A stretch of 64,000 bases of DNA from Candidatus Pacearchaeota archaeon (lineage in GTDB: Archaea > Nanobdellota > Nanobdellia > Pacearchaeales > GW2011-AR1), in contig JACPHA010000011.1 of the NCBI GenBank assembly GCA_016188825.1, positions 80,317 to 144,316 on the forward strand, written 5' to 3'. The notes under the pieces were generated by a model. That model did no database searches, was not told the origin of the DNA, and was given only the letters and a program-made list of their open reading frames with translations. A program made the position numbers and the translations under genes. Shown here in pieces: positions 8,478 to 51,884 of this stretch (within the stretch, counting starts at the first letter, position 1; each line of letters begins with the position of its first letter).

Positions 8478-8888
8478 ATGAAAACATACGAACAATTATT
8501 GGATCGGGCTTATAAGGAAGTTAAAGTAGTTGAGAAAAGTTCTGGCAGGTTTGAAATACCAAAAGTTATAGGAGAGGTTTCTGGTAACAATACCTTTATA
8601 ACGAATATTTATCAGATAGCAAGTTATTTGAGAAGGCCGGTTGAGCATTTGGTTAGATTTTTACAAAAAGAGTTGGCTGTTTTTGGAAAACTCGCCAACA
8701 ACAGACTTGAGCTAAAAACAAAGCTGAATTCATCTAGAGTCAATGAGAAAATAGAAAAATATGCGAAGGAATTTGTTATCTGCCAAGTATGCGGGAAGCC
8801 GGATACTGAAATGACGTCGGAAAAAGGAATAAAATACAAGCACTGCTTGGCTTGCGGAGCGAAATCGCCGATAAAGTATCATTTGTGA
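8478..8888 (+). CDS. eif2b: Translation initiation factor aIF2 beta subunit
   Basis: 136 aa; conserved aIF2b core and C-terminal C2-C2 zinc ribbon (CQVCGKPDT...CLACGA). Confidence 0.75.
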   Translation: MKTYEQLLDRAYKEVKVVEKSSGRFEIPKVIGEVSGNNTFITNIYQIASYLRRPVEHLVRFLQKELAVFGKLANNRLELKTKLNSSRVNEKIEKYAKEFVICQVCGKPDTEMTSEKGIKYKHCLACGAKSPIKYHL

Positions 8889-8902
8889 TAGTCCAGGAAA
8901 AA

Positions 8903-9211
8903 ATGTCAGACAAATTTTATATAAAAATCCACAGAGCTTATAGGAATGTGGTCGCTGTTTGCGATTCTGATATTTTAGGAAAAACATTCGAGGAAGGCAA
9001 GATGCAACTTGAGGTTAGGGAGAGTTTTTATAAGGGAGAAGAAAGAACAACAGAGGAAGCGATTGAAATATTAAAGAGCGAAAAAATGAATGATTCAACT
9101 TTTAATATAGCTGGGAAAAAATCTGTCATGCTTGCAGGGGAAGCAGGGATAATTAACAAAGGAAATGTAGGAAAAGTGCAGGGAATACCATTTGCTTTGG
9201 TTTTGATTTGA
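8903..9211 (+). CDS. Conserved small archaeal protein (DUF424-like?)
   Basis: Start placed at MSDKFYIKIHRAY.. just after aIF2b stop; 102 aa. Confidence 0.4.
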   Translation: MSDKFYIKIHRAYRNVVAVCDSDILGKTFEEGKMQLEVRESFYKGEERTTEEAIEILKSEKMNDSTFNIAGKKSVMLAGEAGIINKGNVGKVQGIPFALVLI

Positions 9212-9231
9212 GCTTTTATTTATAGATTAAT

Positions 9232-9329
9232 TATGGACAATTGCATTACTTATGTGACATTTATTTGCAATTGTACAGACAGAGAATTGCAAAAAACATG
9301 AGACATATCCTATGCAATTCTCTGTAATA
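9232..9329 (-). repeat. R1 family copy (full, inverted orientation)
   Basis: reverse complement of attacagagaattgca(loop)tgcaattctctg tctgtacaattgcaaataaatgtcacataagtaatgcaattgtccata. Confidence 0.7.
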
Positions 9330-9405
9330 ATTTTTTAAGGAGATGACTATTTTTAGTATCTGTCAAAAAGAATAATTTAAAAAAGTTTGTTTTTCTTATG
9401 TTAAG

Positions 9406-9915
9406 ATGGAATCTTTTTATCTTAGCTCAAAAGGAATCAGGGAAACAGCAAAAAGCAAGGAAAATTTAGAGAGAAAACTAAGTATTAAAATAAAGATAGA
9501 GAACAATCACGTTTTTATCGAGGGAAAGCCAATGGCGGAGTATGAAACATCCCTCGTTTTTAATGCTATTAAGTTTGGTTTTTCTGTTAGCAAAGCGTTG
9601 TTGCTTAAAGGAGAAGATATGGCTTTTAGAATAATTCATATAAGGAAACATACGAAAAGGAAACTTAAAGATATAAAGGCGAGGTTGATAGGAACAAAGG
9701 GAAAAACAAGAAGAGTTATGTCTGATATTTCAAACTGCGAGATTTTGATTAGAGAAAGTGACGTGGGGATTCTGGGAAGCTTTAAAGACGTGGAAAATGC
9801 AGAAACAGCGATTATTAGTTTAATTAAAGGATCGAAACAAGCAAATATGTATAGATATTTAGAAAAAATGAATAGAAGAAAGAAAGAAGAGGACGGAATG
9901 ATGAATATTAAATAA
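9406..9915 (+). CDS. KH-domain RNA-binding protein (Dim2/Pno1-like)
   Basis: 169 aa; KH type I motifs IGTKGKTRRVM and ILG.. GS. Confidence 0.55.
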   Translation: MESFYLSSKGIRETAKSKENLERKLSIKIKIENNHVFIEGKPMAEYETSLVFNAIKFGFSVSKALLLKGEDMAFRIIHIRKHTKRKLKDIKARLIGTKGKTRRVMSDISNCEILIRESDVGILGSFKDVENAETAIISLIKGSKQANMYRYLEKMNRRKKEEDGMMNIK

Positions 9916-10110
9916 TAAATTAAAAATAAAAATTTTAATAAAATTTTACCTCTTTCTTCTCTTCTTCACCGCTTTTTTCTTCTTCGCCATTTTTTTACCT
10001 CTTTTTTCTTTCATTAATCAGGAAGTTTTTGTTTATAAATTTATCTACAAATTTTATTTCAAGGAACTTGACAGAAAACCACACACTTTAGTGTGTGTCG
10101 TTCCTTGAAC

Positions 10111-10188
10111 ATGTCAAGAATTTAATTGTCAGAATTCTTGGTGTCCAAAAGTCCAAACACACACAAGGACTTTTTGATTTTCAAGAAA
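10111..10188 (+). repeat. R2 family copy (~70 bp, two hairpins)
   Basis: atgtcaagaatttaattgtcagaattcttggtgtccaaaagtccaaacacacacaaggactttttgat. Confidence 0.7.
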
Positions 10189-10209
10189 AAAATAAAATTT
10201 GCTATTTAT

Positions 10210-10272
10210 CGTGAATTCTGATAATTATAGCACAGATTTATTCAGAATTCCCGTGATAGACAATTCCCAAAA
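10210..10272 (+). repeat. R4 repeat copy (hairpin gaattctg/cagaattc)
   Basis: cgtgaattctgataattatagcacagatttattcagaattcccgtgatagacaattcccaaaaa. Confidence 0.55.
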
Positions 10273-10479
10273 ATCTGCTTCAAGCAAGTGAGCTATCTAT
10301 ATTTTTACCGACGGAAAAATATTTTTCATATCGACTGGAGAAGGCATTATCCCCCATTTTGTTGCAAAAAAAACAAAGTAAGGACGATTTTAATTTTGTA
10401 AACTCCCCTTGGATTATTTTATGACAGAGGCATAGTTTGTCCTTTAAGTTAAGCAAGGAAGAAGTTTTATAAAGCCATA

Positions 10480-11268
10480 TTGTTATTTTTGTTAACGTAT
10501 CTAATAATAAAAAAGGGAAAATTGAGAGAAATTCTATCTATAGCATTTCACAAAGCCGGAAATATTAGGAAGCTTGAAAAAATTACCGGAATACCTAGAG
10601 CCACTTTGTCTGCGTATCATACGGAAAATAGGTTGATTAATCTTAAAAACTTAGAAAAGATTGTTAAGTATCTTGCAATAAAATTTCCCGATAAAGAAAT
10701 AGTAAAGAGATTGCCTCCTAATTGGAAACAGGTCAAAGGAGGTAAGAACAGCGGGGCTATTAGGAAAAGAGAAGGCACATTTGAAAAGCAAATGTTATTG
10801 TGTAGAAAAGGAAGCTCTAGATATATGAAGCTTTGGCATATTACTATGAAGAAGTTAAGCCCGGAGAAGTATTATTCTTCGCAGTTTGAGAAGTTTAAAA
10901 AAATCGGTTTATATAAATTTGAGACCATCGGAAAAATAAAAGTAAGGAATGTTCTTGAGAAAGAGATTGGAGATATTCTTGAAAAGATTAGAGTTGATTA
11001 TAAATATGAAACTCTCGTTAGAGTTGGAAAAAAAGTATTTTTTCCTGATTTTTTTATAGGTGGTAAGGTGATAGTTGAATGTACTATGTGGAGAGGCTTT
11101 GATAAAGCTATAAAATTAAAGGAGAAAATTAAATATTTGGAGAAAAAATATAAGGTTTATGTAGTAATCCCAAAAACTTTAAATAGGTATTACAAGATTC
11201 TTAATCGCAATCTAGTCTTAGGACCGGATGAATTTGTCCCGGTAGCTCAGACTTTTCCTAAATTATAA
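10480..11268 (+). CDS. Hypothetical protein, N-terminal HTH-like and C-terminal PD-(D/E)xK-like region
   Basis: 262 aa ORF; FPDFF..VIVECT..K pattern; last 11 codons overlap the 5' exon of tRNA-Asn. Confidence 0.4.
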   Translation: MLFLLTYLIIKKGKLREILSIAFHKAGNIRKLEKITGIPRATLSAYHTENRLINLKNLEKIVKYLAIKFPDKEIVKRLPPNWKQVKGGKNSGAIRKREGTFEKQMLLCRKGSSRYMKLWHITMKKLSPEKYYSSQFEKFKKIGLYKFETIGKIKVRNVLEKEIGDILEKIRVDYKYETLVRVGKKVFFPDFFIGGKVIVECTMWRGFDKAIKLKEKIKYLEKKYKVYVVIPKTLNRYYKILNRNLVLGPDEFVPVAQTFPKL

Positions 11269-11346
11269 AAAATTTGGATAAGGAGCAATTGGCAGAGCAT
11301 ATGGCTGTTAACCATAGGGTCAGAGGTTCGAGTCCTCTCCGGGACG
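11236..11346 (+). tRNA. tRNA-Asn(GUU) with a ~38-nt intron in the D-loop (non-canonical position, about 11251-11288)
   Basis: 5' exon gtcccgg-ta-gctc-ag; 3' exon ttggca-gagc-a-tatgg-ctGTTaa-ccata-gggtc-agagg-ttcgagt-cctct-ccgggac-g; acceptor stems pair perfectly only across the insert. Confidence 0.55.
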
Positions 11347-11362
11347 TTTTTTCTTAATTTTT

Positions 11363-11605
11363 TCAAGATTTTCTTAGAAAAATTGCTACCAAAATTATCA
11401 AAATAATTATCACTGCAATTATGATTAGTGTTTTAATTTTTTTATTTCTTTTTTCTTTTCTCTTTCTTTCATAATACTTTTCATAAGCCTCTTCGATTTC
11501 TTTTTTTTCCTCGGCTTTTAATTTTGGTGCTTCATGGTTTTTTGAATATTGAAAAGTCATTGTGCCGCCGGTTTGAACTTTTTCTGTCATCTTTATAATA
11601 AACAA
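11363..11605 (-). CDS. Small K/E-rich protein with C-terminal TM anchor
   Basis: 80 aa; C-terminal LIIIAVIIILIILVAIFL. Confidence 0.35.
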   Translation of the reverse strand: MFIIKMTEKVQTGGTMTFQYSKNHEAPKLKAEEKKEIEEAYEKYYERKRKEKRNKKIKTLIIIAVIIILIILVAIFLRKS

Positions 11606-11667: not shown

Positions 11668-12789
11668 ATGAAGAAGGAAAAGAAAAAAGTTGTTGTTGGC
11701 ATTTCAGGCGGGGTTGATTCAAGTGTAGCTGCGCTTTTGTTGAAAAGACAAGGATATGAAGTTATTGGAGTTTTTTTGAAAAATTATTCAGAGACAAAGA
11801 ATAAACTTGGAGGAGAATGCAACTGGATTGAAGAGAGGAGAATTGCGCAGAAAATTGCGGCAATGCTGAAGATTCCTTTGGTGACTGTGGATTATGAGAA
11901 AGAATATAGAAAACTGGTAATAGATAAAATGTTTAATGATTATAAGAAAGGTTTGACGCCAAATCCGGATGTTTTATGCAACAAGGTTAATAAATTTCCA
12001 GGATTGTTAAGAGTTGCTAAGGGGTTTGGAGCAGATTGGATTGCGACCGGACATTATGCACGAATAAAAAATGGTAAAAAAGGATTTGAATTGCTGGCAG
12101 GAAAGGATAGAACAAAAGACCAGTCTTATTTTTTGCATCAACTGGGCCAAGGAACATTGAGCAAAGTTATTTTTCCTTTGGGAGAATATAAGAAAGAGAG
12201 AATTAGAAAAATTGCGAAAAACAAGGGATTTCCAAATTGGAACAAGAAAGGAACAAGCGGAATTTGTTTTGTTGGCAAAGTTGACATGAAAAAGTTTTTG
12301 AAAAAGAAGATTAAAGAAAAACAGGGAAAGGTATTTTCTCCAGAAGGAGAAGTTATTGGAAAACATTCGGGGACAATGTTTTTTACAATTGGCGAAAGGG
12401 CCGGCGAGAAGAAGGGTTTTAGGGTTGATGAAGAATATAGGAAGAAATTTTCTGGAAAAAAACTTTATGTTGCGGAAAAGAGAAAAGGAAATGTTTTGGT
12501 TATTGCGCCTGAGGGGAATTCTGCATTGCAAGCCAAGGAGGTTTTTATTAAGGATTTTCACTTAATTAATCCACGGGAAAAAATTCCTGGAAAAGGATTG
12601 AAGGCAAGAATAAGACATTTGGGGAAATTGAATTCTGGAAAGCTAAGAAGAGAGAAAGGAAGATGGAGTTTTAATTTTGATAGGGGAATTTTCGGGATTG
12701 CTGAAGGGCAGTTTATTGTCATTTATAAAGGTGATAAAGTCATTGGTGGGGGAGAGATTAGGAGAAAATACAACAGAGAACATAAATAA
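11668..12789 (+). CDS. mnmA: tRNA-specific 2-thiouridylase MnmA-like (PP-loop ATPase)
   Basis: 373 aa; SGGVDSS PP-loop, conserved Cys, MnmA-like overall layout. Confidence 0.7.
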   Translation: MKKEKKKVVVGISGGVDSSVAALLLKRQGYEVIGVFLKNYSETKNKLGGECNWIEERRIAQKIAAMLKIPLVTVDYEKEYRKLVIDKMFNDYKKGLTPNPDVLCNKVNKFPGLLRVAKGFGADWIATGHYARIKNGKKGFELLAGKDRTKDQSYFLHQLGQGTLSKVIFPLGEYKKERIRKIAKNKGFPNWNKKGTSGICFVGKVDMKKFLKKKIKEKQGKVFSPEGEVIGKHSGTMFFTIGERAGEKKGFRVDEEYRKKFSGKKLYVAEKRKGNVLVIAPEGNSALQAKEVFIKDFHLINPREKIPGKGLKARIRHLGKLNSGKLRREKGRWSFNFDRGIFGIAEGQFIVIYKGDKVIGGGEIRRKYNREHK

Positions 12790-17911: not shown

Positions 17912-18301
17912 CTACTTCACAAATTTAACATTTGGAAGGGTTTTAAAACCGTCATCGCCTGTGAGAAATTTAACATTATGAGATTTTGCTACAATATAAC
18001 CAAGGCAATCAAGATAGGACAATTTTCTTTTTATTTCTTTAAATCGGAATTTTGCTGCCTTTTTTATATGCTCAGAATTTATTTCAACACAAGAGCTTAT
18101 TAATCGATTAAAAAAATTTTCTGCGAGTTCCAAATTATTATCTCTCATTAGAGTATAATAAAGTTCGTAGAGATTCATTATGGTTGTTATTATCGTGTAT
18201 CCTCCTGTGAACCCCTTATAAGTATTTTCTCCAGTTGCTATTGCATAAAGCGCATAGGTGTCATAAAACAAGACTTTACGACCATCCTTTTCTTGATTCA
18301 T
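17912..18301 (-). CDS. vapC: PIN-domain ribonuclease (VapC-like toxin)
   Basis: 129 aa; acidic PIN residues (FYDTYAL.., LDCLGY.., FLTGDDG). Confidence 0.55.
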   Translation of the reverse strand: MNQEKDGRKVLFYDTYALYAIATGENTYKGFTGGYTIITTIMNLYELYYTLMRDNNLELAENFFNRLISSCVEINSEHIKKAAKFRFKEIKRKLSYLDCLGYIVAKSHNVKFLTGDDGFKTLPNVKFVK

Positions 18302-20881: not shown

Positions 20882-21322
20882 TCACTGTTTGCTGAGAAAT
20901 TTTTCAATTTCTTCAATTATCAAATCAAAATCCTCTAACCCGTTTTTAATGTCAGAATATGCTTTCTCGTTATCAATTTCTACATATTTATGAACTAAAA
21001 TGTTTCTGAATTTCTTTATCTCTTTTATTTTTGAGAAAAAATTTTGAGAAAATAATTTTTTATTTTCAAGTTTGAAAATTATGTCGTCTTCTACTTCCGG
21101 CGTACCAAGATGCATATCAGCGTTTATTATGGCCAAGATATCAATAAATAATTCTATAATCCCTTTAACTTCCTTGTATACGGCATCCCTTATCAGACGC
21201 GAATTTTTGAACTCTTCGATATCAGAAGGGAAGTTTTCTTTTACTACAAGTATCAAATCTACTGCTTTTTCAAGCTTTGATTTTATTAGTTCTACTCTCA
21301 ATTTAAAATCTTCCTTCTTCAT
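20882..21322 (-). CDS. HEPN-domain protein (HepT/DUF86-like toxin)
   Basis: 146 aa; R-x4-H motif (RNILVHKY); 4-bp overlap with upstream MNT gene. Confidence 0.6.
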   Translation of the reverse strand: MKKEDFKLRVELIKSKLEKAVDLILVVKENFPSDIEEFKNSRLIRDAVYKEVKGIIELFIDILAIINADMHLGTPEVEDDIIFKLENKKLFSQNFFSKIKEIKKFRNILVHKYVEIDNEKAYSDIKNGLEDFDLIIEEIEKFLSKQ

Positions 21323-21696
21323 TTCATCCGCTCCATTTTTATATAATCATAATAATACTTCTTAAAATAGCTAAATTCTTTTATTGTTTTATATGCGATA
21401 TCGTAAACAAAGGTTATATCTTTTGCGTAAATTACCTTTCCCCTAAAAACTTCTTTTTTAATAAACAGAGGAAGGTCTTGAAAAACTTTTGCATCAAAGC
21501 GAATGTTAAAGTTAGCATTGAGCATGAACTTAAATCTATCTTTGTCATTGCCTTCATAATAAACGGCAAAGTCATAATCTGACATTTTATTTGCTCTCCC
21601 TTCTGCTTGCGAGCCGAATAGAATTACAAATTTCACTCTATAAAAATCGCTCATTTCTTTCAATTTTTTCATAAATAATTTTATATTTTTGTCCAT
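21319..21696 (-). CDS. Minimal nucleotidyltransferase (MntA-like antitoxin)
   Basis: 125 aa; GS-x9-SDYD motif (LFGSQAEGRANKMSDYDFAV). Confidence 0.6.
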   Translation of the reverse strand: MDKNIKLFMKKLKEMSDFYRVKFVILFGSQAEGRANKMSDYDFAVYYEGNDKDRFKFMLNANFNIRFDAKVFQDLPLFIKKEVFRGKVIYAKDITFVYDIAYKTIKEFSYFKKYYYDYIKMERMK

Positions 21697-31543: not shown

Positions 31544-34500
31544 TCATTCTTTTAATTTTTTTATCGCTCTCGAGTGTAAAGTCCAGATATTTCTTGGATC
31601 ACGATCTAATATCTTCGCTATTTCTATATTCCTCAGACCTTTTTCTTTCCAATAGTAAACTAAAGATTCTAGGATGCTTAATTTTCTATTACTAAATATT
31701 TCAAGAGGCGCAAATCTCTTTTCTTTTACAATTATTTTTTCTTTCTTCTTCTTAATGGCGTTGTTGTAATTAATCCAGACTGTTCTTTGGTCTCTGTTTA
31801 GTAATCTTGCTATTTCGCTGAATCTCAAACCAAGGTTTTCTTTTAGATACTTGCACAATGCTTCTGCCGCGCCCATTTCTTGAGCAAATATTTCTAGTGG
31901 AATCTTGAGCTCACTTCTTTTTACACTGATTAGTAGCTCATGCAAGCCCAAACCATATTTTTCTTTTAGTAATTCATCTAGACTTGTGCCGTATCTTTCC
32001 TTAAGTTTTTCATCAAGAACTTCGAGAGAATTGTTTTCGCTCAATTCTCCTAATTTCTTCTTTCTTCTTCTTGCTCTTTCGCCTAGAGCAAAGGCGGCGA
32101 GGGCGATTGTTCCCTTGATAAGCCAACTTCCTGCTGTTGAAGTTGAATATATTTGTGAAGATATTGTTGAAGGCACTGTTCTTAAACAATAATAAATTTG
32201 CTCTTGTCCTGTTGAGCCGTCGTTAATAGAATTATTTCCTCTGTTCAGAACAGTGTTTATTATTTGCCGGTCTGTTCCGTTTGTTAGTGTGGTGGCTCCC
32301 GATTGTCCGCATTCTGGGTTTGAAGCTCCAGTATTATTTCCGATACTGAAGTTTGCAATATCTATATAAAACGTAGAGACAGATTCACCATGAAGATTAA
32401 TTGCATTCACAGTTATATTTGTGAAATTGTAATTTCCAGTGTTGTTAATTAAAGTCGGATCATTAGTTGATGTTTGATTTGTTGCTCCAATATTTACGGC
32501 GAAATTAATTTGAGCTGGAGAGATTTTAAGGGATTGTAATTGAACATATGAAAAGTTTGTTGTTGTGTTTATTGCAGATAACCCTTCTACATCTTCTCCA
32601 TAAACAGTTATGTTCCACACTCCGTTTTCATCAAAATACCACATTTGAATTGTGCAGGAATAGTTTGCGCTTGTGGAGTCTATGTCTCCAACCAAAGCAC
32701 AGCTTGTGTTTTGTCTCAACGGTTCTCCAGAACGAGTGAAGTTTGCTTTGACACTTGTGTCAGCTAAATCATTGACACCATCATTATCTTTCATGATAAG
32801 GTAAAAGGTAACATTAGTTGTGCTGCCTTCAGTTGGGGAGATGCTTCCGATAGAAGAAACAGAAGTTATTTGTGGAGCGGTGTTATTAACCGTAAGCTCT
32901 CTTGTTTCAGACTCGTTATTATTTCCTGCAAAATCGGTAACATTGACTTTCCAGAAATATTTTCCTACATTTAGCCTATAAAGATTTTTTATTTCTGTAG
33001 CTGTCAGAGAGCGATTCCAGACAGCAACTTCGTCTATGGTGCCGTTGAAATAACTGTCTGGAATCCCATCACCGTTTCTGCCAATATTTATATAATCAGT
33101 AGAGGAAAGGAAACTAACTGAGGTAGTGGCATTAATAACAAAGGCTCCATCAACATATAATTCTTTTTGCGCGTTATTCTTGAAAACTCCCACTATATGA
33201 TGCCAGTTTCCTCTTAAGTCAGTTGTTCCGCCGACAGAAGTAGAAGTTCCGTTATGTGCTGATATAAGTGCTTGTCCACTGGAATTTATATTTATATGAA
33301 AATATCTGTTTTGTGTACTAGAGTCGGCAAGAGAGACGATTACTCCATTCGTAGTGTCATTTGCCTTTTTTACCCATGCAGAAAATGTAAAAGGATAAGA
33401 GTTTATTCCTGCGTCGGAAACTGCTTGTATATCAGAAACTCCAGCTTGGGTTCCTAATCCTATATAATCATCCACACCATCAAATTCATAGGCGCCGCCG
33501 AATTTTCCTCCTGAAACATTATAGACAGAAGCTGTTGTATTAATAATTTGGTTGGTAGTTGTCCAACTATTAAAAACTGTTCCGTTATTTCCTTTATCAG
33601 AGAAGTCATAAATCTTGCCTCCATAAAATAAAACAACTTGGACGAAGTCTAAACGCGGTACGGCGTTGTTGTCAGAATTGCCTGTATAATTAAGTCTTAC
33701 TCTAAAATTAGCATTTGAAAACTCAGTTGAACTCCATGTTCTTCCCCATGTATTGCCAATGCCCCCGTAATTTATTAGAACATCTGACGAAGATGAAAAA
33801 CTTTCTTCTATTGGTGTGGTATAGCTTGTTCCGTTGTTCCAGCTTAGGGCAACTGCAACACCCGGATTTCCACAGGGTGGGCCTATACAACTTTGTTTTC
33901 CTTCCAAGACAACAAGAATTCCTGTTATGTTTACACCGGAAGGAATGCTAAAACTATAATTACTTGTGTCTAGCATATCTCCTGCCGTGCTTTCATTAGC
34001 GTAATTATCATCGGAGGATTTTACATTTTCTCCAGTCGTCCATTGATTTGAAGGATATCCAGTATCGCTTGGAGATTTTGAGCCGCTATCACTCAAAGAA
34101 GATTCGTTAAATTCTTTCCTGTTATCAAAATGGAACAGGACAAGAGTGTCATTGTCTGGGATTGTAACAGGAGAAGTCCAGTTGTAAGTGAATGATGTTC
34201 CAGAGGAAAAGTTTATATTTTGGTATAGTAAGCCGTGCTTGTAGAAATTAGCTGTTGAAGTTGAATTTACACCGTAAATAGCTACGTCTACAAGGTCATT
34301 GAATTGGTCGGTAACACTTGCGTTTAGTGTTATATTAAAAGTGCCCACATGAAAGACAGAAGTATTGGCCGGGGTGTTTAATGTAATAGAAGGAAATATT
34401 GTATTGTTTATTGTAAACGTGAAATTTCTGCTGCTTGTTAAGTTCACAGAAAGAGAAACTTCTTGATAGCCATATTGACTAGCGTTTATCGTGTAATTTG

Positions 34501-37500
34501 TTTGGTATGTTCTTGCCGTGCCATTAACAGTGTATTCTGTTACGTTTTGTTGGATTATGTTTCCAGAAAAGTTTGTTGTTATGTTGTGTGTTAGCGAGCC
34601 GGTATTGTTGTAAAAAATAACTCTGGCTCCGCTTAATGAGTTATTTAAGTGGTCTTGGACACGAACATCGACGTACCATTCCCTGAATAGCTTTCCACTT
34701 GCCTGAATATTATCATTTGTGTAGTTGGAATTTCGGATTGTTATGTTTCCTGAAGCGACGAAAATGTCCTCAAATTGTGCATCAGAAATATTAGAGTTAA
34801 CAACAATACTATTGTTACTGCCAGAATAAATATTATAGTCGGTTGAAGTGGATGAAGCACCTAAAAATAAAGAATCTTGTATATAAATTCCATTGGCTTG
34901 CAAATCTAAGTTTGCTGTATCTGCTCCCCTGAGAGTATTATTTCTAAATACAACGTTATTTGTGTTTAATGTAAGGCCTCTTCTATTTTTTAGATTAGCA
35001 GATCCTGTGTTTGAGACATATGAATTCAATATAGTCAAGTTGGAGTTTGTAGAAGTATAGAAGTCATATCTAAAGCTTCCAAAGCTAGTGATGTTTGAAT
35101 AATTTGCAGTTAGTCTTCCTCCAATTTCAATATCATATTGACCGCTAACAGTGCTATTCATCTCAAGTGCGCAGCTTTCCAAGATCAAATTGCCCGTAGA
35201 AGTCACATTTATACTTGCTTGGCTTGAATATCTACACGGCCTTGTTCCATCAGAAAGATTATTGAAAACATCACTGTTTCCAACTCTTGTAAAGATATCA
35301 TGTGGTGTTTCGGTCGTTGTTACTTCTATTACATCGATTAACTGCAAAGTTAAAGTTACAATAGAATCAGAAGTTATATTTCTAGAAGTTCCATTTGAGA
35401 CATATCCTGCTTTTGTGGCATTTATAGAATGATTATTTTGGTAAACTTTTCCAGAGCCAGTGTCTTTGTATTGAGTTAAATTCCTGAAAACAGCGCCTGC
35501 AGAATCTGTCAAAGCATTGAAAACAATTGCATTGGAGACGTTTCTGATTGTTACATTTGCGCTTCCTAGTGGTTGCGGAACTGCTCCGGTGTAAACAGAA
35601 ACGTTAACTCTAAACATTCTTTCTAGAGAACCGCCCGCAATTGTATAATTAGATGTATCACTGGAATTTAACAAAACAGTTGTGTTTTCAATGTCAATTC
35701 CGTAGAAGTTTATGTTTGCATCAGTTATGTTTAAAGCATTTCTAATATTTGAGAAGCTGAAGTTACCGTAACTGCCTCTGGGAAACGGATCAATAATTAT
35801 TGATGTAAAGTTGAATTTATTTGCAAAGGCGGGTGTTGTTACATTTCCTCCTGTTAAATTTAATCCTTGAGGAGAATGGATGAAAAAGGAGTATCTCCCA
35901 TCATTGGCAGTTGTGTTGAAAATTATATTACAAGTTGAATTTAGAGTTAGTGTTTCACTTGGAGTTATGTTCAAGTCAATGTTTAAGCCCACGCAGGTTG
36001 TGTAAGCGCTTGTGCACGCATAGCCCTGTTTTGTTGCAATGGCCAATGATTTTAAGTCATCGCAATTTAACGGCTCTACCACTTTTAGCTGGTTATCTGT
36101 AACGATAAACTCCCTTGCTTCTGATTCATTGCTTCTGCTTGTTGAGTCTGTGACATTTACTTTCCAGAAATATTTTCCTGCTTTTAATCTGTAAAGATTT
36201 TTTATTTCGTTTGCTGTCAAAGCTCTATTCCAGACAGCTACTTCATCAATTGTTCCGTTGAAATACAATCCTCCAAAGAGGTCGCCTTCTGCGCCGACCC
36301 TGAATCTGTTTGTTACAAGATTAAAAGTAACGCTTGTTGTTAAATTAGCAACAAAATTTCCATCAACATAAAGCGACTTTCCGGTGTTAGACTCAAAAAC
36401 TCCAACAACATGATGCCAGCCATTTCTTAAATCTATTGTTCCTCCTGCTGACTGCCTTGCTCCGTTGTCTTCTGCTATAATTCTTGCCTGTCCAGAGCCA
36501 TTTATTTCTATTCCATAGAGAGGGTCATCGGCAAAATCACTTCCTAATGAGGCAATTATTCCTTCAGTACTTCCTGTTTTATAAGCCCACCCTGAAAATG
36601 TGAAAGGATAAGCAGCCAAACCTAAATCGGACTCTTGCGTTATCCAGTCATTAACACCGTCAAATTGAACTCCATAGCCAAATTTTCCGCCATCTCTTGA
36701 AGTGTTGTAAACTGCTCCTGAAAATGTTCCGTTGTTATTATTGCCTGAAAAATCATAGGAATAAGTATCGTTTTCTCCTTTTGAAGATAAATTATCAAAA
36801 TGATACAACAATACCAAAGAATTTGAATTATTGCTAACAGGTAAAGCCGTGAAGTTGTAAGTTATTTCTGTGCCGTTTGTAACAGCGAGTTGTTTGTATA
36901 ATAGGTAATTATAGAAGTTTGAAGTTTCTTTTGAGTTTACACCATAAAGCAAAACATCAATTGTATCATTGTCTAAGTCATAAACTGTTGAGTTTAATGT
37001 TATGTTAAAGACATCTATTGCAAATGTAGAATCATTTGTTGGAGTATTAAGTGTTGTGTAGGGATTATTATACAAAGTATAATTAACCTGCGCCCAAATA
37101 GCATCTACTCCTGGATTAAAGCTTCGAGGGCTTTGACAATCGTTGCATGCAACCTGCATTATTCTTAATCTAAAACTTGAGTTTGAAAATTCACTCGCAT
37201 CCCATTCTCTTCCCCATTTGTCTGTTAGTCCTGTTAGAGTATTATTAGCATCTGTACATGTAGTCCATGTGGCTTGTTTTTCTGTTGTATAACTTGTGCC
37301 ATTATTCCAGCTTAAACTGACATTCAACACCGCCTGTCTGTCTATCCCTATGCAACTTGTACCATGCCTTGCTTCTACCTTAACTAAAATACCATTAATT
37401 GTCGCCCCAGCAGGAATGCCGAAACTATAATTACTTGTGTCTAACGCTTCTCCGTTTGTTGTTTCGTTTGCATAATTGTTATCCGAGACTTTAACATTTT

Positions 37501-40384
37501 CTCCTGCAATCCATTGATTTAATGGATAACCAGTGTCTGTTGGAGAAACTAAACCAGTTAGCTGCGGCTCTGCTGGGTCAATGATATGGTCAAGCTCTAT
37601 ACTACCATTTAAAATTCTTAAATCGAAGCTATCTTGAGTAATGTTATCTCCTAAACCAGTTAAGAAAACTTTATTGTATTGGTTGTCATTTATTGAAGAA
37701 AATTCTGCAATTAAAACAGAGCCATTAATTTCATAAACTTCAATTTTTGGAGTTCCATTGACTGTTCTTGGGAATAATGTAATATCATTCTCTTTTGTAA
37801 GATTTCTTTCAAACTTAACTCTTATGTAATGCGCTTCTGGGATAATTTCACTCCAGTTGTTGTCCAATTCCCTAACAGAGTCATAAATATCAGAAATAAA
37901 TTCACGAGTCTCATTTAAATGCTCTGCTTTTGTTATTACAATAATTTCAAATGTTTGGTTGCTTAATTGTGGGGCAATCCATTCTATATAGTCATAAATG
38001 CCATTCAGGTCAAGGTCAGAAATATTTGAAGGAATAATATAACTATCATTTTCAACCCAGAAAATTCTGATTTTTTTAGGATTGGTAACTGGGAGAGATT
38101 CTGGTAAATTCGTGAAAGCTAAAACATTTTCGTAGTGCACATCATCAGGGCCGATGATTTGAACTATTTTTCCTCTTGTCGTGTCTTCTTCTATTGCATA
38201 GGGAGCAGGAGTTTCATACACTACTTCAACTCCTGATTCATTGGAACTGATTTCTACAATAATTTCTATTGTTTCATTTTGTTCTTCGCTGACTGTAAGC
38301 CCGGTAAATCTGAAAAATGTGAATATTTTTTTAAACCAATCCATTAATCTGAAGAAAATTCCTTTTTTTCCAACTTCTTGTTGAAAAATTATATTTCCAT
38401 TTATGTCAACCTTTATTTTTTTAGAGCGCTTATTTTCATAAATTGATTGTCCTGTTATTAGAGAGCCATTAACAGTTTCTTCTGGTATTCCTTCATTTTC
38501 AAAATTAGACTGTGTTGTTTTTTCTAAAACACTTTCAGTTTCGTTAATTTCATTAGAAGTTTCATTAATTATTGAAGGATTTTCTTCAATAGAAGTTTGA
38601 TTTTGTTCTTCTTCTTGAATTTCTTCTGATATTTCTTCATTACTTTCTTCTATTCCTTCTATTTTCTTGATTTTTTTTACACTGATATTTTTAGCGCTTT
38701 CTGGCAGCTCAATTGTTACATTAGCGGGGCCAGTGACATTAATCGTTCTTGCCCATTTAACTGGCTGTCCTAAAACAGCTTTAAATTGTGTGATATTTGC
38801 TGTAAGATTTGATATTATTGTAATATTGGTCTGATTAGTTGGCGTAATCAAAGTTTCATTAATTAGTGTTTCGTTTGTTGGAGGGGTGATTGTTTCATTT
38901 AATTTAGGAGGGATAGTTATGTTTTCTTCAGGTAGAGTTATATTTTCTAATGGTTCAGAGACATTTTCTGGAATTTCCGGAGCCGGAATAGTAATATTTT
39001 CTGCCAGCTCTTTTTCAATTCTTATTTCATATTTTATTTTATCTAATTTTAATTTAGCATTTGTTATTTCTATTCTTAGAGTGTAAGAAGTTTTGTCTAA
39101 ATCAAATTCTTTTAAGTCACAAGTTTCTTTGCAAAAGTCCTTGAATTCTTTTACTGGGATTTCAAGTTCTTCTTTTTTCTTCTCCTCTTTTGGTTTTTCT
39201 TCAGTTACATTCTCTTCTACTGTTGGTTCTTCTATTGGCTGTTCTGCTCTAGGCTCTTCCGACGGGAGTTCTTCTTGAGGAGGCTGTTCGGCTTTCGGCG
39301 GTTCTTCAACCGGAGGCTCTTCTTGGACTGGCTTTTCTTGAGGAGTTGGTTCATCTGTTGGTTCTTCACTGCTGCTAGTTGTTTCAGAACTTTCTCTTGT
39401 TGAAGCTGAAGAATCAGAAGAATCTGTTGAAGTGGAAGAACTAGTTTCTTCATTTCCTTCTACGTTAAATCCTGTAATTGTTCCACTGGTGATTGTTTTT
39501 TTTCCAGTAACTTCGATTTCATTGCTGTCTAAAATTAAGAAATCATCAAGATAAATTTTTACTTCTCCTTCGCCTTCAATTTCTCCAGAAACCCTTAGCC
39601 AATTTAAAACCCCTTGTTTGTCTAGGGTAAATTCTTGTTCTATGCTTTCTTTAAAAGTTAAATCAACATTTTTAGTGTGAACTTCGTCAGCCAATTCAAC
39701 TGTCAAACCTGTCAGACCCAATTTGTCAGAATAGATATAGAGTAAGAATAACAAAGCAGTAAATAAAACAAAAGCAAAAACAAAGCCAGAGGCCCCTATT
39801 GCAATTCTTTTTATATTTTCTTTTCTAATCTCCGCATCGCAAATTTCTATTTGTTTTTTGCATTGTTCTATATAATTATTATAATAATCGACCCATTCTT
39901 GCGCCGTCTTGTTTTGTAAAGTTTCTTTTAATTTTTTTTCACAATAATCAGAAGTTATTTCTTTATTTTTATACTTCAAGAACAATTCATTAGCAAAAGA
40001 AATAATTTTTTTCTTGTTGTATTCTGCTTCTTTAATCTTGGTGTATAACGACTTTTTTCTTTCGTCTAAATGGCTCAGCTTAATTTCCCTAATTCCGGTC
40101 GCGTTTTTCTTTTCTTTTTCTATTTCTTCATTATACCATTCTAATTGGGCTTTGTGCGTCCTTAATTGGATGTCATAATGGCTAGTCCATTGCTCTGCCG
40201 TTAGGTCCTTGAAAATTTCCCCATATTTTTTTTGATATTGCTCATAGTTTAATAATCCAATATTATACTGAAAATTTAGTTTTTGTAAAATATTTTCAAT
40301 TCTTTCTTTTTCTAATTTACACAGTTCAATTTTTTTTAAAATTTCTCTTCTTTTTTCTTCAAGTTGTTTTAATTTATCTTCCAT
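31544..40384 (-). CDS. Giant (2946 aa) two-TM surface protein: N-terminal cytoplasmic coiled coil, TM, S/T/P/E-rich stalk, 2 LamG-like domains, beta-helix-like repeats, second TM, C-terminal cytoplasmic tandem sigma70-region4/LuxR-like HTH repeats
   Basis: Uninterrupted ORF; TM1 IAIGASGFVFAFVLFTALLFLLYIY; LamG blocks with ..WHH(V/I)VGVF..LYVDG..GTIDEVAVWNR; TM2 SWLIKGTIALAAFALG followed by RRRKKK; tail repeats GLRFSEIARLLNRDQRTVWINYNNAIKK / GLRNIEIAKILDRDPRNIWTLHSRAIKKLKE. Confidence 0.65.
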   Translation of the reverse strand: MEDKLKQLEEKRREILKKIELCKLEKERIENILQKLNFQYNIGLLNYEQYQKKYGEIFKDLTAEQWTSHYDIQLRTHKAQLEWYNEEIEKEKKNATGIREIKLSHLDERKKSLYTKIKEAEYNKKKIISFANELFLKYKNKEITSDYCEKKLKETLQNKTAQEWVDYYNNYIEQCKKQIEICDAEIRKENIKRIAIGASGFVFAFVLFTALLFLLYIYSDKLGLTGLTVELADEVHTKNVDLTFKESIEQEFTLDKQGVLNWLRVSGEIEGEGEVKIYLDDFLILDSNEIEVTGKKTITSGTITGFNVEGNEETSSSTSTDSSDSSASTRESSETTSSSEEPTDEPTPQEKPVQEEPPVEEPPKAEQPPQEELPSEEPRAEQPIEEPTVEENVTEEKPKEEKKKEELEIPVKEFKDFCKETCDLKEFDLDKTSYTLRIEITNAKLKLDKIKYEIRIEKELAENITIPAPEIPENVSEPLENITLPEENITIPPKLNETITPPTNETLINETLITPTNQTNITIISNLTANITQFKAVLGQPVKWARTINVTGPANVTIELPESAKNISVKKIKKIEGIEESNEEISEEIQEEEQNQTSIEENPSIINETSNEINETESVLEKTTQSNFENEGIPEETVNGSLITGQSIYENKRSKKIKVDINGNIIFQQEVGKKGIFFRLMDWFKKIFTFFRFTGLTVSEEQNETIEIIVEISSNESGVEVVYETPAPYAIEEDTTRGKIVQIIGPDDVHYENVLAFTNLPESLPVTNPKKIRIFWVENDSYIIPSNISDLDLNGIYDYIEWIAPQLSNQTFEIIVITKAEHLNETREFISDIYDSVRELDNNWSEIIPEAHYIRVKFERNLTKENDITLFPRTVNGTPKIEVYEINGSVLIAEFSSINDNQYNKVFLTGLGDNITQDSFDLRILNGSIELDHIIDPAEPQLTGLVSPTDTGYPLNQWIAGENVKVSDNNYANETTNGEALDTSNYSFGIPAGATINGILVKVEARHGTSCIGIDRQAVLNVSLSWNNGTSYTTEKQATWTTCTDANNTLTGLTDKWGREWDASEFSNSSFRLRIMQVACNDCQSPRSFNPGVDAIWAQVNYTLYNNPYTTLNTPTNDSTFAIDVFNITLNSTVYDLDNDTIDVLLYGVNSKETSNFYNYLLYKQLAVTNGTEITYNFTALPVSNNSNSLVLLYHFDNLSSKGENDTYSYDFSGNNNNGTFSGAVYNTSRDGGKFGYGVQFDGVNDWITQESDLGLAAYPFTFSGWAYKTGSTEGIIASLGSDFADDPLYGIEINGSGQARIIAEDNGARQSAGGTIDLRNGWHHVVGVFESNTGKSLYVDGNFVANLTTSVTFNLVTNRFRVGAEGDLFGGLYFNGTIDEVAVWNRALTANEIKNLYRLKAGKYFWKVNVTDSTSRSNESEAREFIVTDNQLKVVEPLNCDDLKSLAIATKQGYACTSAYTTCVGLNIDLNITPSETLTLNSTCNIIFNTTANDGRYSFFIHSPQGLNLTGGNVTTPAFANKFNFTSIIIDPFPRGSYGNFSFSNIRNALNITDANINFYGIDIENTTVLLNSSDTSNYTIAGGSLERMFRVNVSVYTGAVPQPLGSANVTIRNVSNAIVFNALTDSAGAVFRNLTQYKDTGSGKVYQNNHSINATKAGYVSNGTSRNITSDSIVTLTLQLIDVIEVTTTETPHDIFTRVGNSDVFNNLSDGTRPCRYSSQASINVTSTGNLILESCALEMNSTVSGQYDIEIGGRLTANYSNITSFGSFRYDFYTSTNSNLTILNSYVSNTGSANLKNRRGLTLNTNNVVFRNNTLRGADTANLDLQANGIYIQDSLFLGASSTSTDYNIYSGSNNSIVVNSNISDAQFEDIFVASGNITIRNSNYTNDNIQASGKLFREWYVDVRVQDHLNNSLSGARVIFYNNTGSLTHNITTNFSGNIIQQNVTEYTVNGTARTYQTNYTINASQYGYQEVSLSVNLTSSRNFTFTINNTIFPSITLNTPANTSVFHVGTFNITLNASVTDQFNDLVDVAIYGVNSTSTANFYKHGLLYQNINFSSGTSFTYNWTSPVTIPDNDTLVLFHFDNRKEFNESSLSDSGSKSPSDTGYPSNQWTTGENVKSSDDNYANESTAGDMLDTSNYSFSIPSGVNITGILVVLEGKQSCIGPPCGNPGVAVALSWNNGTSYTTPIEESFSSSSDVLINYGGIGNTWGRTWSSTEFSNANFRVRLNYTGNSDNNAVPRLDFVQVVLFYGGKIYDFSDKGNNGTVFNSWTTTNQIINTTASVYNVSGGKFGGAYEFDGVDDYIGLGTQAGVSDIQAVSDAGINSYPFTFSAWVKKANDTTNGVIVSLADSSTQNRYFHININSSGQALISAHNGTSTSVGGTTDLRGNWHHIVGVFKNNAQKELYVDGAFVINATTSVSFLSSTDYINIGRNGDGIPDSYFNGTIDEVAVWNRSLTATEIKNLYRLNVGKYFWKVNVTDFAGNNNESETRELTVNNTAPQITSVSSIGSISPTEGSTTNVTFYLIMKDNDGVNDLADTSVKANFTRSGEPLRQNTSCALVGDIDSTSANYSCTIQMWYFDENGVWNITVYGEDVEGLSAINTTTNFSYVQLQSLKISPAQINFAVNIGATNQTSTNDPTLINNTGNYNFTNITVNAINLHGESVSTFYIDIANFSIGNNTGASNPECGQSGATTLTNGTDRQIINTVLNRGNNSINDGSTGQEQIYYCLRTVPSTISSQIYSTSTAGSWLIKGTIALAAFALGERARRRKKKLGELSENNSLEVLDEKLKERYGTSLDELLKEKYGLGLHELLISVKRSELKIPLEIFAQEMGAAEALCKYLKENLGLRFSEIARLLNRDQRTVWINYNNAIKKKKEKIIVKEKRFAPLEIFSNRKLSILESLVYYWKEKGLRNIEIAKILDRDPRNIWTLHSRAIKKLKE

Positions 40385-43329: not shown

Positions 43330-43373
43330 AAACGAAACTTTAAATAACTTATCTTTGAATCATAATATAAAAT

Positions 43374-43515
43374 GATCCCGTAGCTTAGCCTGGTCAGAGC
43401 GCCGGTCTTATATGACGTGCGTTTCTTCCTTGCTTAATTTGGGGAAGCAATGCAGAGCTTTATCGAGCAATTCGAAGAAAGCCGGAGGTCGGGAGTTCAA
43501 ATCTCCCCGGGATCA
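43374..43515 (+). tRNA. tRNA-Ile(UAU) with ~67-nt intron at canonical 37/38 position (about 43413-43479)
   Basis: Acceptor gatcccg/cgggatc + A73; D-arm; anticodon stem ccggt/gccgg across the intron with loop c-t-TAT-a; T-arm gggag-ttcaaat-ctccc. Confidence 0.5.
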
Positions 43516-43550
43516 TTTTTTTAATAATAAAGCTTTAATATCGGATTGGT

Positions 43551-51825: not shown

Positions 51826-51884
51826 TTTCTTCAAAACGAAAATACGTCCACATAGAAAGATTTATAAATATTGTGCCCCCCATA

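What the first reader, a model, noticed from the sequence alone, without database searches (positions are those of the whole stretch)
11236..11346. tRNA-Asn(GUU) interrupted in the D-loop (non-canonical intron position 15/16) and overlapping the 3' end of a CDS
A complete cloverleaf is only obtained by joining gtcccggtagctcag (11236-11250) to ttggcagagcatatggctGTTaaccata...ccgggacg (11289-11346), skipping ~38 nt. The ORF 10480-11268 reads through the 5' exon (its last 11 codons are the exon in frame). Non-canonical intron positions require a BHB motif and are known mostly from Thermoproteales and some DPANN.
Basis: seen in the sequence. Interest (0 to 1): 0.6.

Follow-up and report, generated by a model that had tools for sequence, protein, structure and literature searches.

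The report
Intron-split tRNA-Asn overlapped by nuclease gene
This is a working asparagine tRNA gene of a tiny DPANN archaeon, interrupted in its D-loop by a 38-base intron of a known archaeal type; a conserved nuclease-like gene ends inside it, and that overlap is kept in almost all related genomes examined.

Summary
Joining 11236-11250 to 11289-11346 gives a 73-nt tRNA-Asn(GUU) that ARAGORN accepts and that is colinear with intron-free orthologues. The 38-nt insert (11251-11288) folds into a relaxed bulge-helix-bulge motif. D-stem strand GCUC pairs with intronic GAGC as the 4-bp central helix. The 5' side has an exact 3-nt bulge (AG|A). An intron-internal helix follows. The exon-side closing helix is missing. 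Cutting after the second bulge base gives position 15/16.

The same intron at the same site is present in 21 other DPANN genomes. The inner helix covaries (6 of 6 pairs with double changes; 0 of 500 shuffles reach the observed score). This is not a pseudogene.

The overlapping ORF is real. It belongs to an unannotated DPANN-only family (236 proteins) with an XRE-type HTH and a T7-endonuclease-I-like domain whose catalytic Lys is replaced by Thr. In 33 of 35 loci its stop codon lies inside the tRNA gene or its intron. A consensus archaeal TATA box sits inside the ORF 58 nt before the tRNA, and synonymous sites show DNA-level constraint on it.

The intron is a new member of a known kind. I found no paper describing the conserved gene-tRNA overlap, and its function is unproven.

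The parts
11236..11250 (+). tRNA-Asn 5' exon, tRNA positions 1-15: acceptor 5' strand, U8 A9, D-stem 5' strand GCUC, A14 G15
   Evidence: The same 15-mer architecture is seen in 21 loci.
11251..11288 (+). 38-nt non-canonical intron at tRNA position 15/16
   Evidence: Its removal gives a 73-nt cloverleaf colinear with intron-free orthologues. The BHB fold is shown. It is conserved in 21 loci, with lengths of 22-39 nt.
11289..11346 (+). tRNA-Asn 3' exon, positions 16-73. The anticodon GUU is at 11307-11309 and the discriminator G73 is at 11346. No CCA is encoded.
   Evidence: Partial Rfam tRNA match at 11282-11341.
11245..11248 (+). 5' strand of the 4-bp central BHB helix (GCUC, which is also the D-stem 5' strand). 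It pairs with 11283-11286.
   Evidence: MFE fold. 96.6% of cells are paired across 22 sequences.
11249..11251 (+). 5' three-nucleotide bulge A14 G15 | A. The inferred cut follows G15.
   Evidence: AG is invariant and the third base is A or U in 22 sequences.
11252..11282 (+). Intron-internal helix h' and its apical loop: CUU(U)UCC(U)AAAUU, loop AUAAAA, then AAUUUGGA(U)AAG
   Evidence: The first 6 pairs all show compensatory changes and 95.5% of cells are paired.
11283..11286 (+). Intronic GAGC, the 3' strand of the central helix. It mimics the exonic D-stem strand GAGC at 11296-11299.
11287..11289 (+). 3' splice-site triplet A A | U16. It opens into a single-stranded junction rather than a closed bulge.
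   Evidence: The proposed outer helix (8-9 with 17-18) is only 61% paired and shows no covariation.
10480..11268 (+). Conserved DPANN gene with an XRE-type HTH, a helical middle region and a T7-endonuclease-I-like PD-(D/E)xK domain. Alternative starts are 10489 and 10522. Its last 33 nt overlap the tRNA gene, and the TAA stop at 11266-11268 is in the intron loop.
   Evidence: The overlap is conserved in 33 of 35 loci.
11174..11185 (+). Candidate BRE/TATA promoter (AAACTTTAAATA) for the tRNA, embedded in codons K-T-L-N of the ORF. The TATA octamer is at 11178-11185, 58 nt before tRNA +1.
   Evidence: The octamer TTTA[AT]A[AT]A is present in 23 of 30 loci, with synonymous-site constraint. The identical 12-mer occurs only once more in the window, upstream of another tRNA.
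11347..11364 (+). T-runs (TTTTTTCTTAATTTTTTC) directly after G73, the likely archaeal terminator for the tRNA and for any ORF read-through transcript
   Evidence: That it acts as a terminator is an inference.

Best explanation
11236-11346 is the functional tRNA-Asn(GUU) gene of a Pacearchaeota-like DPANN archaeon, interrupted by a 38-nt protein-spliced intron between positions 15 and 16.

In the precursor, the D-stem 5' strand GCUC pairs with an intronic GAGC that mimics the real D-stem 3' strand. That pairing forms the 4-bp central helix of a relaxed bulge-helix-bulge motif. On one side is an exact 3-nt bulge (A14 G15 | A) followed by an intron-internal helix. On the other side the AA|U16 triplet opens into an unpaired junction. 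The archaeal splicing endonuclease would cut after the second base of each triplet and an RtcB-type ligase would join the exons, after which the true D-stem forms. Both enzymatic steps are inferred.

The gene lies under the 3' end of a conserved HTH / endonuclease-I-like gene. The reading frame of that gene runs through exon 1 (VPVAQ) and stops in the intron loop. This overlap is old and widely conserved in DPANN. The most likely reason it is kept is that the tRNA's own BRE/TATA promoter lies inside the ORF (11174-11185), so neither gene can move without damaging the other. That part is inferred.
For: - The spliced product is a canonical 73-nt tRNA-Asn. It has the same length and D-loop layout as intron-free orthologues such as L025, L006 and L035.
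- The BHB structure is the MFE and the centroid fold of the precursor, at -36.8 kcal/mol with z = -3.0.
- The same intron site occurs in the window and in 21 genomes labelled Pace-, Woese-, Nano-, Aenigmat- or Iainarchaeota.
- Central helix: 96.6% of cells paired. Inner helix: 6 of 6 pairs with changes on both sides and 95.5% paired. Covariation score 0.350 against 0.155 in shuffles (0 of 500 reach it). Slid controls pair at 67% or less.
- 71 of 133 full-length family proteins end in VAQ+T/S-F, which is the translated exon-intron junction.
- On the tree of the overlapping gene the intron sits on deep and shallow branches alike.
- The ORF is real: 236 homologues, 56% mean column identity and an AlphaFold model with pLDDT 91.9.
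- Its stop codon lies inside the pre-tRNA in 33 of 35 loci.
- ORF and tRNA stay adjacent even in distant loci where all other synteny is lost.
- Promoter: TTTA[AT]A[AT]A in 23 of 30 loci. The third base of a codon whose amino acid varies is T in 25 of 30 (background 32%, P = 1e-8). Leu is coded by TTA in 24 of 29. The 12-mer AAACTTTAAATA occurs only here and 39 nt upstream of tRNA-Ile, against 0.16 expected.
- The literature reports that DPANN splicing endonucleases carry an extra loop (L3), which is associated with more disrupted tRNA genes (PMC5829648).
Against: - No RNA data exist, so splicing, the cut sites and the transcription start are all inferred.
- The exon-side helix of a strict BHB is absent, so a broad-specificity endonuclease is required. 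None was found among the 36 window ORFs scanned, and the rest of the genome is unavailable.
- A second tRNA-Asn elsewhere in the genome cannot be excluded from 64 kb.
- The TATA box lies 58 nt from the tRNA, against about 35 nt (Ile) and 32 nt (His) for two of the other three tRNAs in the window. That implies an unusually long leader of about 28 nt.
- The statistics on the promoter motif are not corrected for phylogenetic relatedness.
Confidence: 0.85

Rival explanations
1. It is a decayed tRNA-Asn pseudogene that was disrupted by a 38-bp insertion, and the real tRNA-Asn is elsewhere in the genome.
For: ARAGORN does not call the unspliced gene. Rfam scores it only at the gathering threshold. 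The genome outside the 64 kb cannot be inspected.
Against: - All cloverleaf stems are perfect after splicing.
- The interruption is at the same nucleotide in 21 other genomes, with compensatory changes in the intron helix.
- There is no other Asn-type D-arm or exon copy in the window.
- An insertion that happens to recreate GAGC plus a 3-nt bulge exactly 4 bp from the junction is not expected by chance.
Confidence: 0.03
2. The exon-1 piece and the ORF are the scar of a mobile element that integrated into a tRNA gene (an att-site duplication or a partitioned integrase), not an intron.
For: Archaeal integrative elements target tRNA genes, and SSV-type integrase genes overlap the att site (general knowledge). 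The ORF has a nuclease-like domain whose weak structural neighbours include XisH excision factors and a homing endonuclease.
Against: - No duplicated tRNA fragment or direct repeat exists in the region or the window.
- There is no integrase or transposase next to it.
- The ORF is full length and sits in a conserved translation-gene block, aIF2-beta, DUF424, KH protein, ORF, tRNA.
- The overlap involves the tRNA 5' end, whereas integration usually duplicates the 3' part.
- The arrangement is shared across several DPANN lineages.
Confidence: 0.03
3. The overlap is functionally meaningless. The ORF simply lacks an earlier stop codon in a compact AT-rich genome. The TATA-like motif reflects codon bias for the conserved peptide PKxL(N/Y), and the tRNA is made by processing the ORF's own transcript.
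For: - The C-terminal tail after LGxD is variable. It is replaced by unrelated sequence in loci that use another frame.
- The stop falls in many different places: U8A9G10, the intron, the D-loop or the anticodon-loop UAA.
- TTA, AAT and TAT are the favoured codons in these genomes.
Against: - Adjacency and overlap persist in 33 of 35 loci, including lineages where all other synteny is gone.
- The third base of an amino-acid-variable codon is fixed as T in 25 of 30 loci.
- The exact 12-mer recurs only at another tRNA promoter position.
Confidence: 0.3
4. The ORF is a homing-type endonuclease that targets the uninterrupted tRNA-Asn D-arm DNA, and the D-loop intron protects the host copy from cleavage.
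For: The C-terminal domain is endonuclease-I-like, with the acidic triad invariant. Weak fold similarity exists to the I-Bth0305I homing endonuclease. The intron splits the most conserved DNA segment next to the gene.
Against: - Loci with an uninterrupted D-loop keep the ORF with the same invariant residues.
- The catalytic Lys position is an invariant Thr.
- One ORF copy was recovered per fetched locus, and the ORF tree groups the intron-free loci L005-L008 and L010 as one coherent clade.
- The ORF is not inside the intron.
Confidence: 0.05

Closest known systems
Non-canonical (relaxed BHB: HBh', hBH, BHL) archaeal tRNA introns, described mainly in Thermoproteales and other Crenarchaeota, Nanoarchaeota and ARMAN (PMC4090602, PMC5829648, PMC3239211)
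   Same: A short protein-spliced intron lies outside the anticodon loop. A 4-bp helix forms between exon and intron, flanked by 3-nt splice-site bulges. One side is relaxed. A canonical 37/38 intron often co-occurs in the same gene in relatives.
   Different: Here one particular intron (tRNA-Asn, position 15/16) is kept across several DPANN lineages rather than being lineage-specific. Its central helix works by mimicking the D-stem 3' strand. Position 15/16 is not among the example positions listed in the review I read. I did not see the full published position tables.
D-loop introns tested biochemically: Methanopyrus kandleri pre-tRNA-Glu(UUC) at 20b/21 and Aeropyrum pernix pre-tRNA-Thr(UGU) (PMC5829648)
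   Same: The intron lies in the D-loop with a relaxed motif, so the tertiary core cannot form before splicing. It needs a broad-specificity endonuclease.
   Different: The tRNA and the position differ, and nothing here has been tested experimentally. The DPANN enzyme type is probably alpha-4 with the L3 loop according to that paper, but it was not identified for this genome.
Phage T7 endonuclease I (PF05367), a PD-(D/E)xK junction-resolving enzyme
   Same: The ORF's C-terminal domain aligns to T7 endonuclease I with E = 2.4e-4. The motifs RxxLE, PDF and E-x-(K) correspond to E20, D55 and E65. One family member carries a precomputed PF05367 hit. PHROG endonuclease and resolvase families match weakly.
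   Different: The catalytic Lys67 position is an invariant or near-invariant Thr. There is an added N-terminal XRE-type HTH and a roughly 70-residue helical middle region. The gene is cellular, DPANN-specific and tied to a tRNA gene.
Protein genes overlapping or nested with tRNA genes, such as tRNA punctuation in mitochondria and tRNA-Sec nested in selB (PMC8124441)
   Same: A coding sequence shares nucleotides with a tRNA gene on the same strand. In one frame the tRNA's U8-A9-G10 supplies the stop codon.
   Different: This is an archaeal chromosome. The overlap is conserved across lineages for one specific gene pair, extends into a tRNA intron, and carries a candidate internal promoter.

Membership tests
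Archaeal BHB-type tRNA intron | 4-bp central helix between two splice sites | tested here: met
   GCUC 11245-48 pairs with GAGC 11283-86 in the MFE and centroid fold. 96.6% of cells are paired in 22 sequences. 3 sequences have a G.A at the outer pair.
Archaeal BHB-type tRNA intron | Two 3-nt bulges on opposite strands. Cutting after the second bulge base must give the mature sequence. | tested here: met
   The 5' bulge AG|A is exact. The 3' triplet is AA|U. Applying the rule (from my own knowledge of the motif) gives the 73-nt tRNA, whose D-loop matches intron-free orthologues.
Archaeal BHB-type tRNA intron (strict hBHBh' form) | Flanking helices h (exon side) and h' (intron side) closing both bulges | tested here: not met
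   h' is strongly supported, with 6 of 6 covarying pairs. h (8-9 with 17-18) is only 61% paired, with A9-N17 pairing in 5 of 22 sequences. The motif is therefore relaxed, of the HBh'/BHL kind.
Archaeal BHB-type tRNA intron | A splicing endonuclease (EndA) able to cut relaxed motifs, and an RtcB ligase, are encoded in the genome | not testable with these tools
   No tRNA_int_endo domain was found in the 36 window ORFs scanned. Only 64 kb of the genome is available.
Archaeal BHB-type tRNA intron | The intron is actually excised from the RNA | not testable with these tools
   No transcript data are available.
tRNA-Asn | Cloverleaf with anticodon GUU, a 7-bp acceptor stem, G18 G19, a T-loop UUCGAGU and discriminator G73 | tested here: met
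   ARAGORN calls the spliced sequence tRNA-Asn(gtt). The sequence was read directly.
Phage endonuclease I / PD-(D/E)xK nuclease (ORF C-terminal domain) | Catalytic E...PD...E-x-K set | tested here: inconclusive
   E146, D176 and E186 are invariant. The Lys position is T188. A substitute Lys such as K195 or K202 is possible but unproven.
XRE-type HTH (ORF N-terminal domain) | Pfam HTH_3 or HTH_26 match above the curated cut-off | tested here: inconclusive
   The window protein scores 20.3 and 17.4 bits, against cut-offs of 22 and 23. Some homologues carry precomputed PF01381 or PF13443 hits. The fold search matches Cro and C-protein HTH domains.
Intron-encoded homing endonuclease (archaeal mobile BHB introns) | Endonuclease ORF contained within the intron | tested here: not met
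   The ORF starts about 750 nt upstream of the tRNA. Only its last 5 codons and the stop lie in the intron.
Integrated element at a tRNA att site | Duplicated tRNA segment flanking an element with an integrase | tested here: not met
   No duplicates of either exon exist in the window, and no integrase is nearby.

The most novel reading that the evidence does not exclude
The endonuclease-I-like gene and tRNA-Asn form an obligate coupled unit that goes back to early DPANN. The tRNA promoter is written into the ORF's codons. The ORF's stop codon is written into the tRNA or its intron, so every full-length ORF mRNA is also a pre-tRNA. RNase P or EndA processing of that transcript would remove the stop codon. 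tRNA maturation and expression of the nuclease-like protein would therefore be mutually exclusive, and the protein may itself act on (pre-)tRNA or on this locus.
Probability: 0.15. Interest if true: 0.7.

Novelty: new member of a known kind. Interest (0 to 1): 0.45.

Why it matters
As an intron, this is one more case of a known class. It confirms that standard bacterial-style tRNA finders miss an essential tRNA in DPANN genomes. It also shows that one D-loop intron has been retained across several DPANN lineages, which argues for old introns with repeated loss rather than only recent spread.

The more useful by-product is the gene pair. An unannotated DPANN-specific HTH / endonuclease-I-like protein has its coding sequence physically interlocked with tRNA-Asn in nearly every genome examined. 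The tRNA's TATA box appears to be encoded in the protein's codons. This gives a concrete and testable example of how overlapping signals can freeze gene order in reduced genomes. It also flags an uncharacterised conserved DPANN protein for study.

Tried and rejected
- ARAGORN on the window and on the unspliced gene finds nothing at this site. Rfam gives only a borderline partial match, plus spurious hits such as HPnc0260 antisense to the T-arm.
- A strict BHB outer helix (U8-A9 with N17-G18) was tested and rejected: 61% paired, no covariation.
- NCBIfam has no family for the ORF. Pfam gives only sub-threshold HTH hits. PHROGs and PADLOC give weak PD-(D/E)xK hits only.
- I looked for EndA among 36 window ORFs and found none.
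- I looked for att-type duplications of tRNA pieces and found none.
- The homing-endonuclease/immunity idea was rejected as the main explanation because intron-free loci keep an intact ORF.
- The literature searches found general reports of disrupted tRNA genes in DPANN but no description of this intron or of the gene-tRNA overlap. The library is limited to open-access papers, so this does not prove the overlap is undescribed.
- The MFE fold of the second intron-containing tRNA (43374-43515) did not give a clean BHB, and I did not pursue it.

Full report
**What is in the sequence.** The window is archaeal. Around the site lie aIF2-beta (8478-8888), a DUF424 protein, a KH-domain protein, a tRNA 2-thiouridylase (MnmA-type) gene (11668-12789) and FtsZ. 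Homologues of the local ORF are labelled Candidatus Pacearchaeota and other DPANN groups. GTCCCGGTAGCTCAG occupies 11236-11250. A 38-nt insert occupies 11251-11288. TTGGCAGAGC...CCGGGACG occupies 11289-11346.

ARAGORN finds nothing at this site in the genomic sequence. Rfam's tRNA model matches only the 3' part at threshold, 29.7 bits against a gathering score of 29. When the two pieces are joined, ARAGORN calls a 73-nt tRNA-Asn(GUU). It has a perfect 7-bp acceptor stem, D-stem GCUC/GAGC, D-loop AGUUGGCA, anticodon loop CUGUUAA, T-loop UUCGAGU and G73. The exon sequences occur once in the window, and no other Asn-type D-arm is present.

**Is there a splicing motif?** Yes. The minimum-free-energy and centroid fold of the precursor is -36.8 kcal/mol, with z = -3.0 against shuffles.

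- GCUC (11245-48, the D-stem 5' strand) pairs with an intronic GAGC (11283-86). That gives a 4-bp helix.
- On its 5' strand the helix is followed by a 3-nt bulge, A14 G15 A(11251).
- Next comes an intron-internal helix: CUU/AAG, UCC/GGA and AAAUU/AAUUU.
- On its 3' strand the helix is followed by A A U(11289).

If each triplet is cut after its second base, the product is exactly exon 1 (positions 1-15) plus exon 2 (positions 16-73). The cutting rule comes from my own knowledge of the motif and was not tested here. Intron-free orthologues have U or C at position 16. That matches the first base of exon 2 and not the intron's first A. This fixes the junction at 15/16.

The exon-side closing helix of a strict motif is missing. 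After the AA|U triplet the chain stays unpaired until the anticodon stem. The motif therefore belongs to the relaxed class (HBh', hBH, BHL). According to Kaneta et al. 2018 (PMC5829648), relaxed motifs need a broad-specificity endonuclease. [quoted passage not shown]

**Comparative evidence.** A protein alignment of the overlapping ORF (A1) was used to fetch 38 loci from species-representative genomes. Of the 35 usable arrangements (34 fetched loci plus the window), 34 have the homologous gene directly followed by tRNA-Asn(GUU). In L032 it is followed by tRNA-Thr(UGU).

Twenty-one loci and the window carry an intron at the same D-loop site. Its length is 22-39 nt. The 5' end reads AG|A(U)CUUUU... 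and the 3' end reads ...GAGC(A)AA|N. I built an ungapped alignment of the junction regions (A2) and counted pairs on it.

| Element | Cells paired | Covariation |
|---|---|---|
| Central helix | 96.6% | pairs invariant or change on one side only; no double changes |
| Inner helix h' | 95.5% | 6 of 6 pairs changed on both sides |
| Proposed outer helix h | 61% | none |

The covariation score is 0.350 against 0.155 in shuffles, and 0 of 500 shuffles reach it. Sliding the partners by 1-3 columns drops pairing to 47-67%.

Independently, 71 of 133 full-length proteins of the family end in ...VAQ(T/S)F... That is the translation of the exon-1/intron junction. Nine more read through an uninterrupted D-loop. 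On a neighbour-joining tree of the overlapping gene, the intron occurs on deep branches (the Iainarchaeum and Aenigmatarchaeota MAGs, and unclassified archaea) and on shallow ones. It is missing in one coherent clade and in scattered tips. This fits an old intron with repeated loss. Many relatives also carry a canonical 37/38 intron in the same gene. The pseudogene reading is therefore not tenable.

**The overlapping gene.** ORF 10480-11268 is real, although its start may be 10489 or 10522. The family has 236 members, all unnamed or 'hypothetical' apart from a generic XRE-HTH label on a few, and all from DPANN sources where a source is named. Mean column identity is 56%.

An AlphaFold model built on the alignment has pLDDT 91.9. 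It shows an N-terminal helix-turn-helix, three long helices and a C-terminal alpha/beta domain. The HTH is below Pfam's cut-off for the window protein. It is called in some homologues, and it matches Cro and C-protein structures.

A profile search against PDB sequences places the C-terminal domain nearest phage T7 endonuclease I, at E = 2.4e-4.

- RNxLE aligns to E20.
- FFPDF aligns to D55.
- IIECT aligns to E65-T-K67.

The three acidic residues are invariant, but the Lys position is Thr. Foldseek, PHROGs and PADLOC give only weak PD-(D/E)xK-type hits. NCBIfam gives none. Whether the protein is an active nuclease is open.

**The overlap is conserved.** The ORF's stop codon lies inside the pre-tRNA in 33 of 35 loci.

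- In the commonest frame, tRNA position 1 is codon position 1 (GUC CCG GUA GCU CAG = VPVAQ). The stop then falls in the D-loop intron, as here (UAA 11266-68 in the intron's apical loop). It can also fall in the D-loop, in the UAA of the anticodon loop, or in the canonical intron.
- In another frame, U8-A9-G10 of the tRNA is the UAG stop.
- The two exceptions are still adjacent to the tRNA. In L035 the stop overlaps the tRNA by 1 nt, and in L015 it lies 28 nt upstream.

In Pace-, Woese- and Nanoarchaeota the pair sits in a conserved block: aIF2-beta, DUF424, KH protein, ORF, tRNA. In the most distant loci only the ORF and the tRNA remain together. Five codons are exon, and five codons plus the stop are intron.

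**A candidate promoter inside the ORF.** Aligning the DNA upstream of the tRNA shows a conserved CCAAAAnnTTTA(A/T)ATAG. The octamer TTTATATA, TTTAAATA or TTTAAAAA is present in 23 of 30 loci. It lies 58 nt before tRNA +1 in the common frame. It is encoded by the codons x-L-(N/Y/K).

- The amino acid at x varies (T, A, P, N, G, H, S), yet its third base is T in 25 of 30 loci. The background is 32% (binomial P = 1e-8, not corrected for relatedness).
- Leu is coded by TTA in 24 of 29, against 48% background.
- In the window the 12-mer AAACTTTAAATA occurs exactly twice. One copy is here (11174-85). The other starts 39 nt upstream of the intron-containing tRNA at 43374, in the same orientation. The chance expectation is 0.16.

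I infer an archaeal BRE/TATA element that would start transcription about 28 nt before the tRNA. This is longer than the roughly 5-nt leader implied for the tRNA at 43374, and it has not been tested. T-runs directly follow G73. No stop precedes the tRNA, so any translatable ORF mRNA must contain the whole pre-tRNA. The consequences for expression are speculation and are given as the novel case.

**Alternatives considered.**

- *Integration scar.* There are no duplicated tRNA pieces, no integrase, and the context is conserved.
- *Homing endonuclease with the intron as protection.* Intron-free loci keep the ORF with the same invariant residues, the ORF is not in the intron, and its distribution looks vertical.
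- *Neutral overlap from genome compaction.* This remains a live partial rival for the meaning of the overlap. It does not explain the synonymous-site constraint or the persistence of the pair where other synteny is lost.

**Comparison with what is known, and verdict.** Non-canonical protein-spliced tRNA introns, including D-loop ones, are well described (PMC4090602, PMC5829648). A 2026 preprint reports that tRNAscan-SE finds tRNA-Asn in all 208 complete Nanobdellota genomes. Archaeal-mode tools therefore already handle such genes.

The intron is a new member of a known kind. It is notable mainly for being conserved at one site across several DPANN lineages and for using a D-stem mimic as its central helix. 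The interlocked gene pair and the embedded promoter were not found in the papers I could search. They are the part worth following up, but their functional meaning is unproven. Interest 0.45.

Noticed in passing
window 43374-43515 (+): This is a second interrupted tRNA (Rfam 55.3 bits) with a 68-nt insert in the anticodon loop. The only reading that leaves a 7-nt loop gives anticodon UAU (tRNA-Ile), which is unusual for archaea but, from memory, has been reported for Nanoarchaeum. Its MFE fold did not show a clean BHB. It shares the promoter 12-mer AAACTTTAAATA (43335-43346) with the tRNA-Asn locus.
   Followed up: partly
L032 3718-3819: In one Woesearchaeota genome the ORF homologue overlaps a tRNA-Thr(UGU) with discriminator U instead of tRNA-Asn. 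That tRNA carries an intron at the same D-loop site. It could be tRNA remoulding or replacement at a fixed locus.
   Followed up: no
L026 3712-3876: The tRNA-Asn of an Aenigmatarchaeota MAG spans 165 nt and seems to carry at least three inserts: in the D-loop, in the anticodon-stem region and in the T-loop (GGTTCGAGT|AAAATCGGAATT|CCTGC).
   Followed up: no
L030 and L031, 3728-3814: Two Aenigmatarchaeota loci lack the 15/16 intron. Instead they have a roughly 15-nt insert near position 9/10 (GCCCTCGTAG TAATTACGAGGAAA GCTCAG), where the acceptor strand CCUCG pairs with intronic CGAGG. An extra copy of GCCCTCG lies just upstream.
   Followed up: no
window 8478-11346, and loci L003-L040: There is a conserved gene block of aIF2-beta, DUF424, (one more family in many loci), KH-domain protein, HTH/endonuclease-I-like ORF and tRNA-Asn. 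This places the unknown protein among translation-related genes.
   Followed up: partly
window 10480-11268, residue T188 of the 248-aa form: The position of the catalytic Lys67 of T7 endonuclease I is an invariant or near-invariant Thr in the family, while the three acidic residues are kept. The protein may be inactive, may use a relocated Lys, or may have altered chemistry.
   Followed up: partly
window 31544-40384 (-): A single ORF of 2946 aa, which I did not analyse.
   Followed up: no
window 17912-18301, 20882-21696, 51690-52696, 61010-63011: There are several toxin-antitoxin-like or stress modules: a PIN domain, a HepT plus nucleotidyltransferase (MNT) pair, further Pol-beta-type nucleotidyltransferases, and a Fic/DOC protein. 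A phage-type metallopeptidase is at 40973-41359.
   Followed up: no
window 11316-11446 (-) and 43483-43637 (-): Rfam's HPnc0260 (a Helicobacter antisense RNA) gives sub-threshold matches antisense to the 3' ends of both intron-containing tRNAs. The model evidently contains a tRNA-like T-arm and acceptor segment, so these are artefacts.
   Followed up: yes
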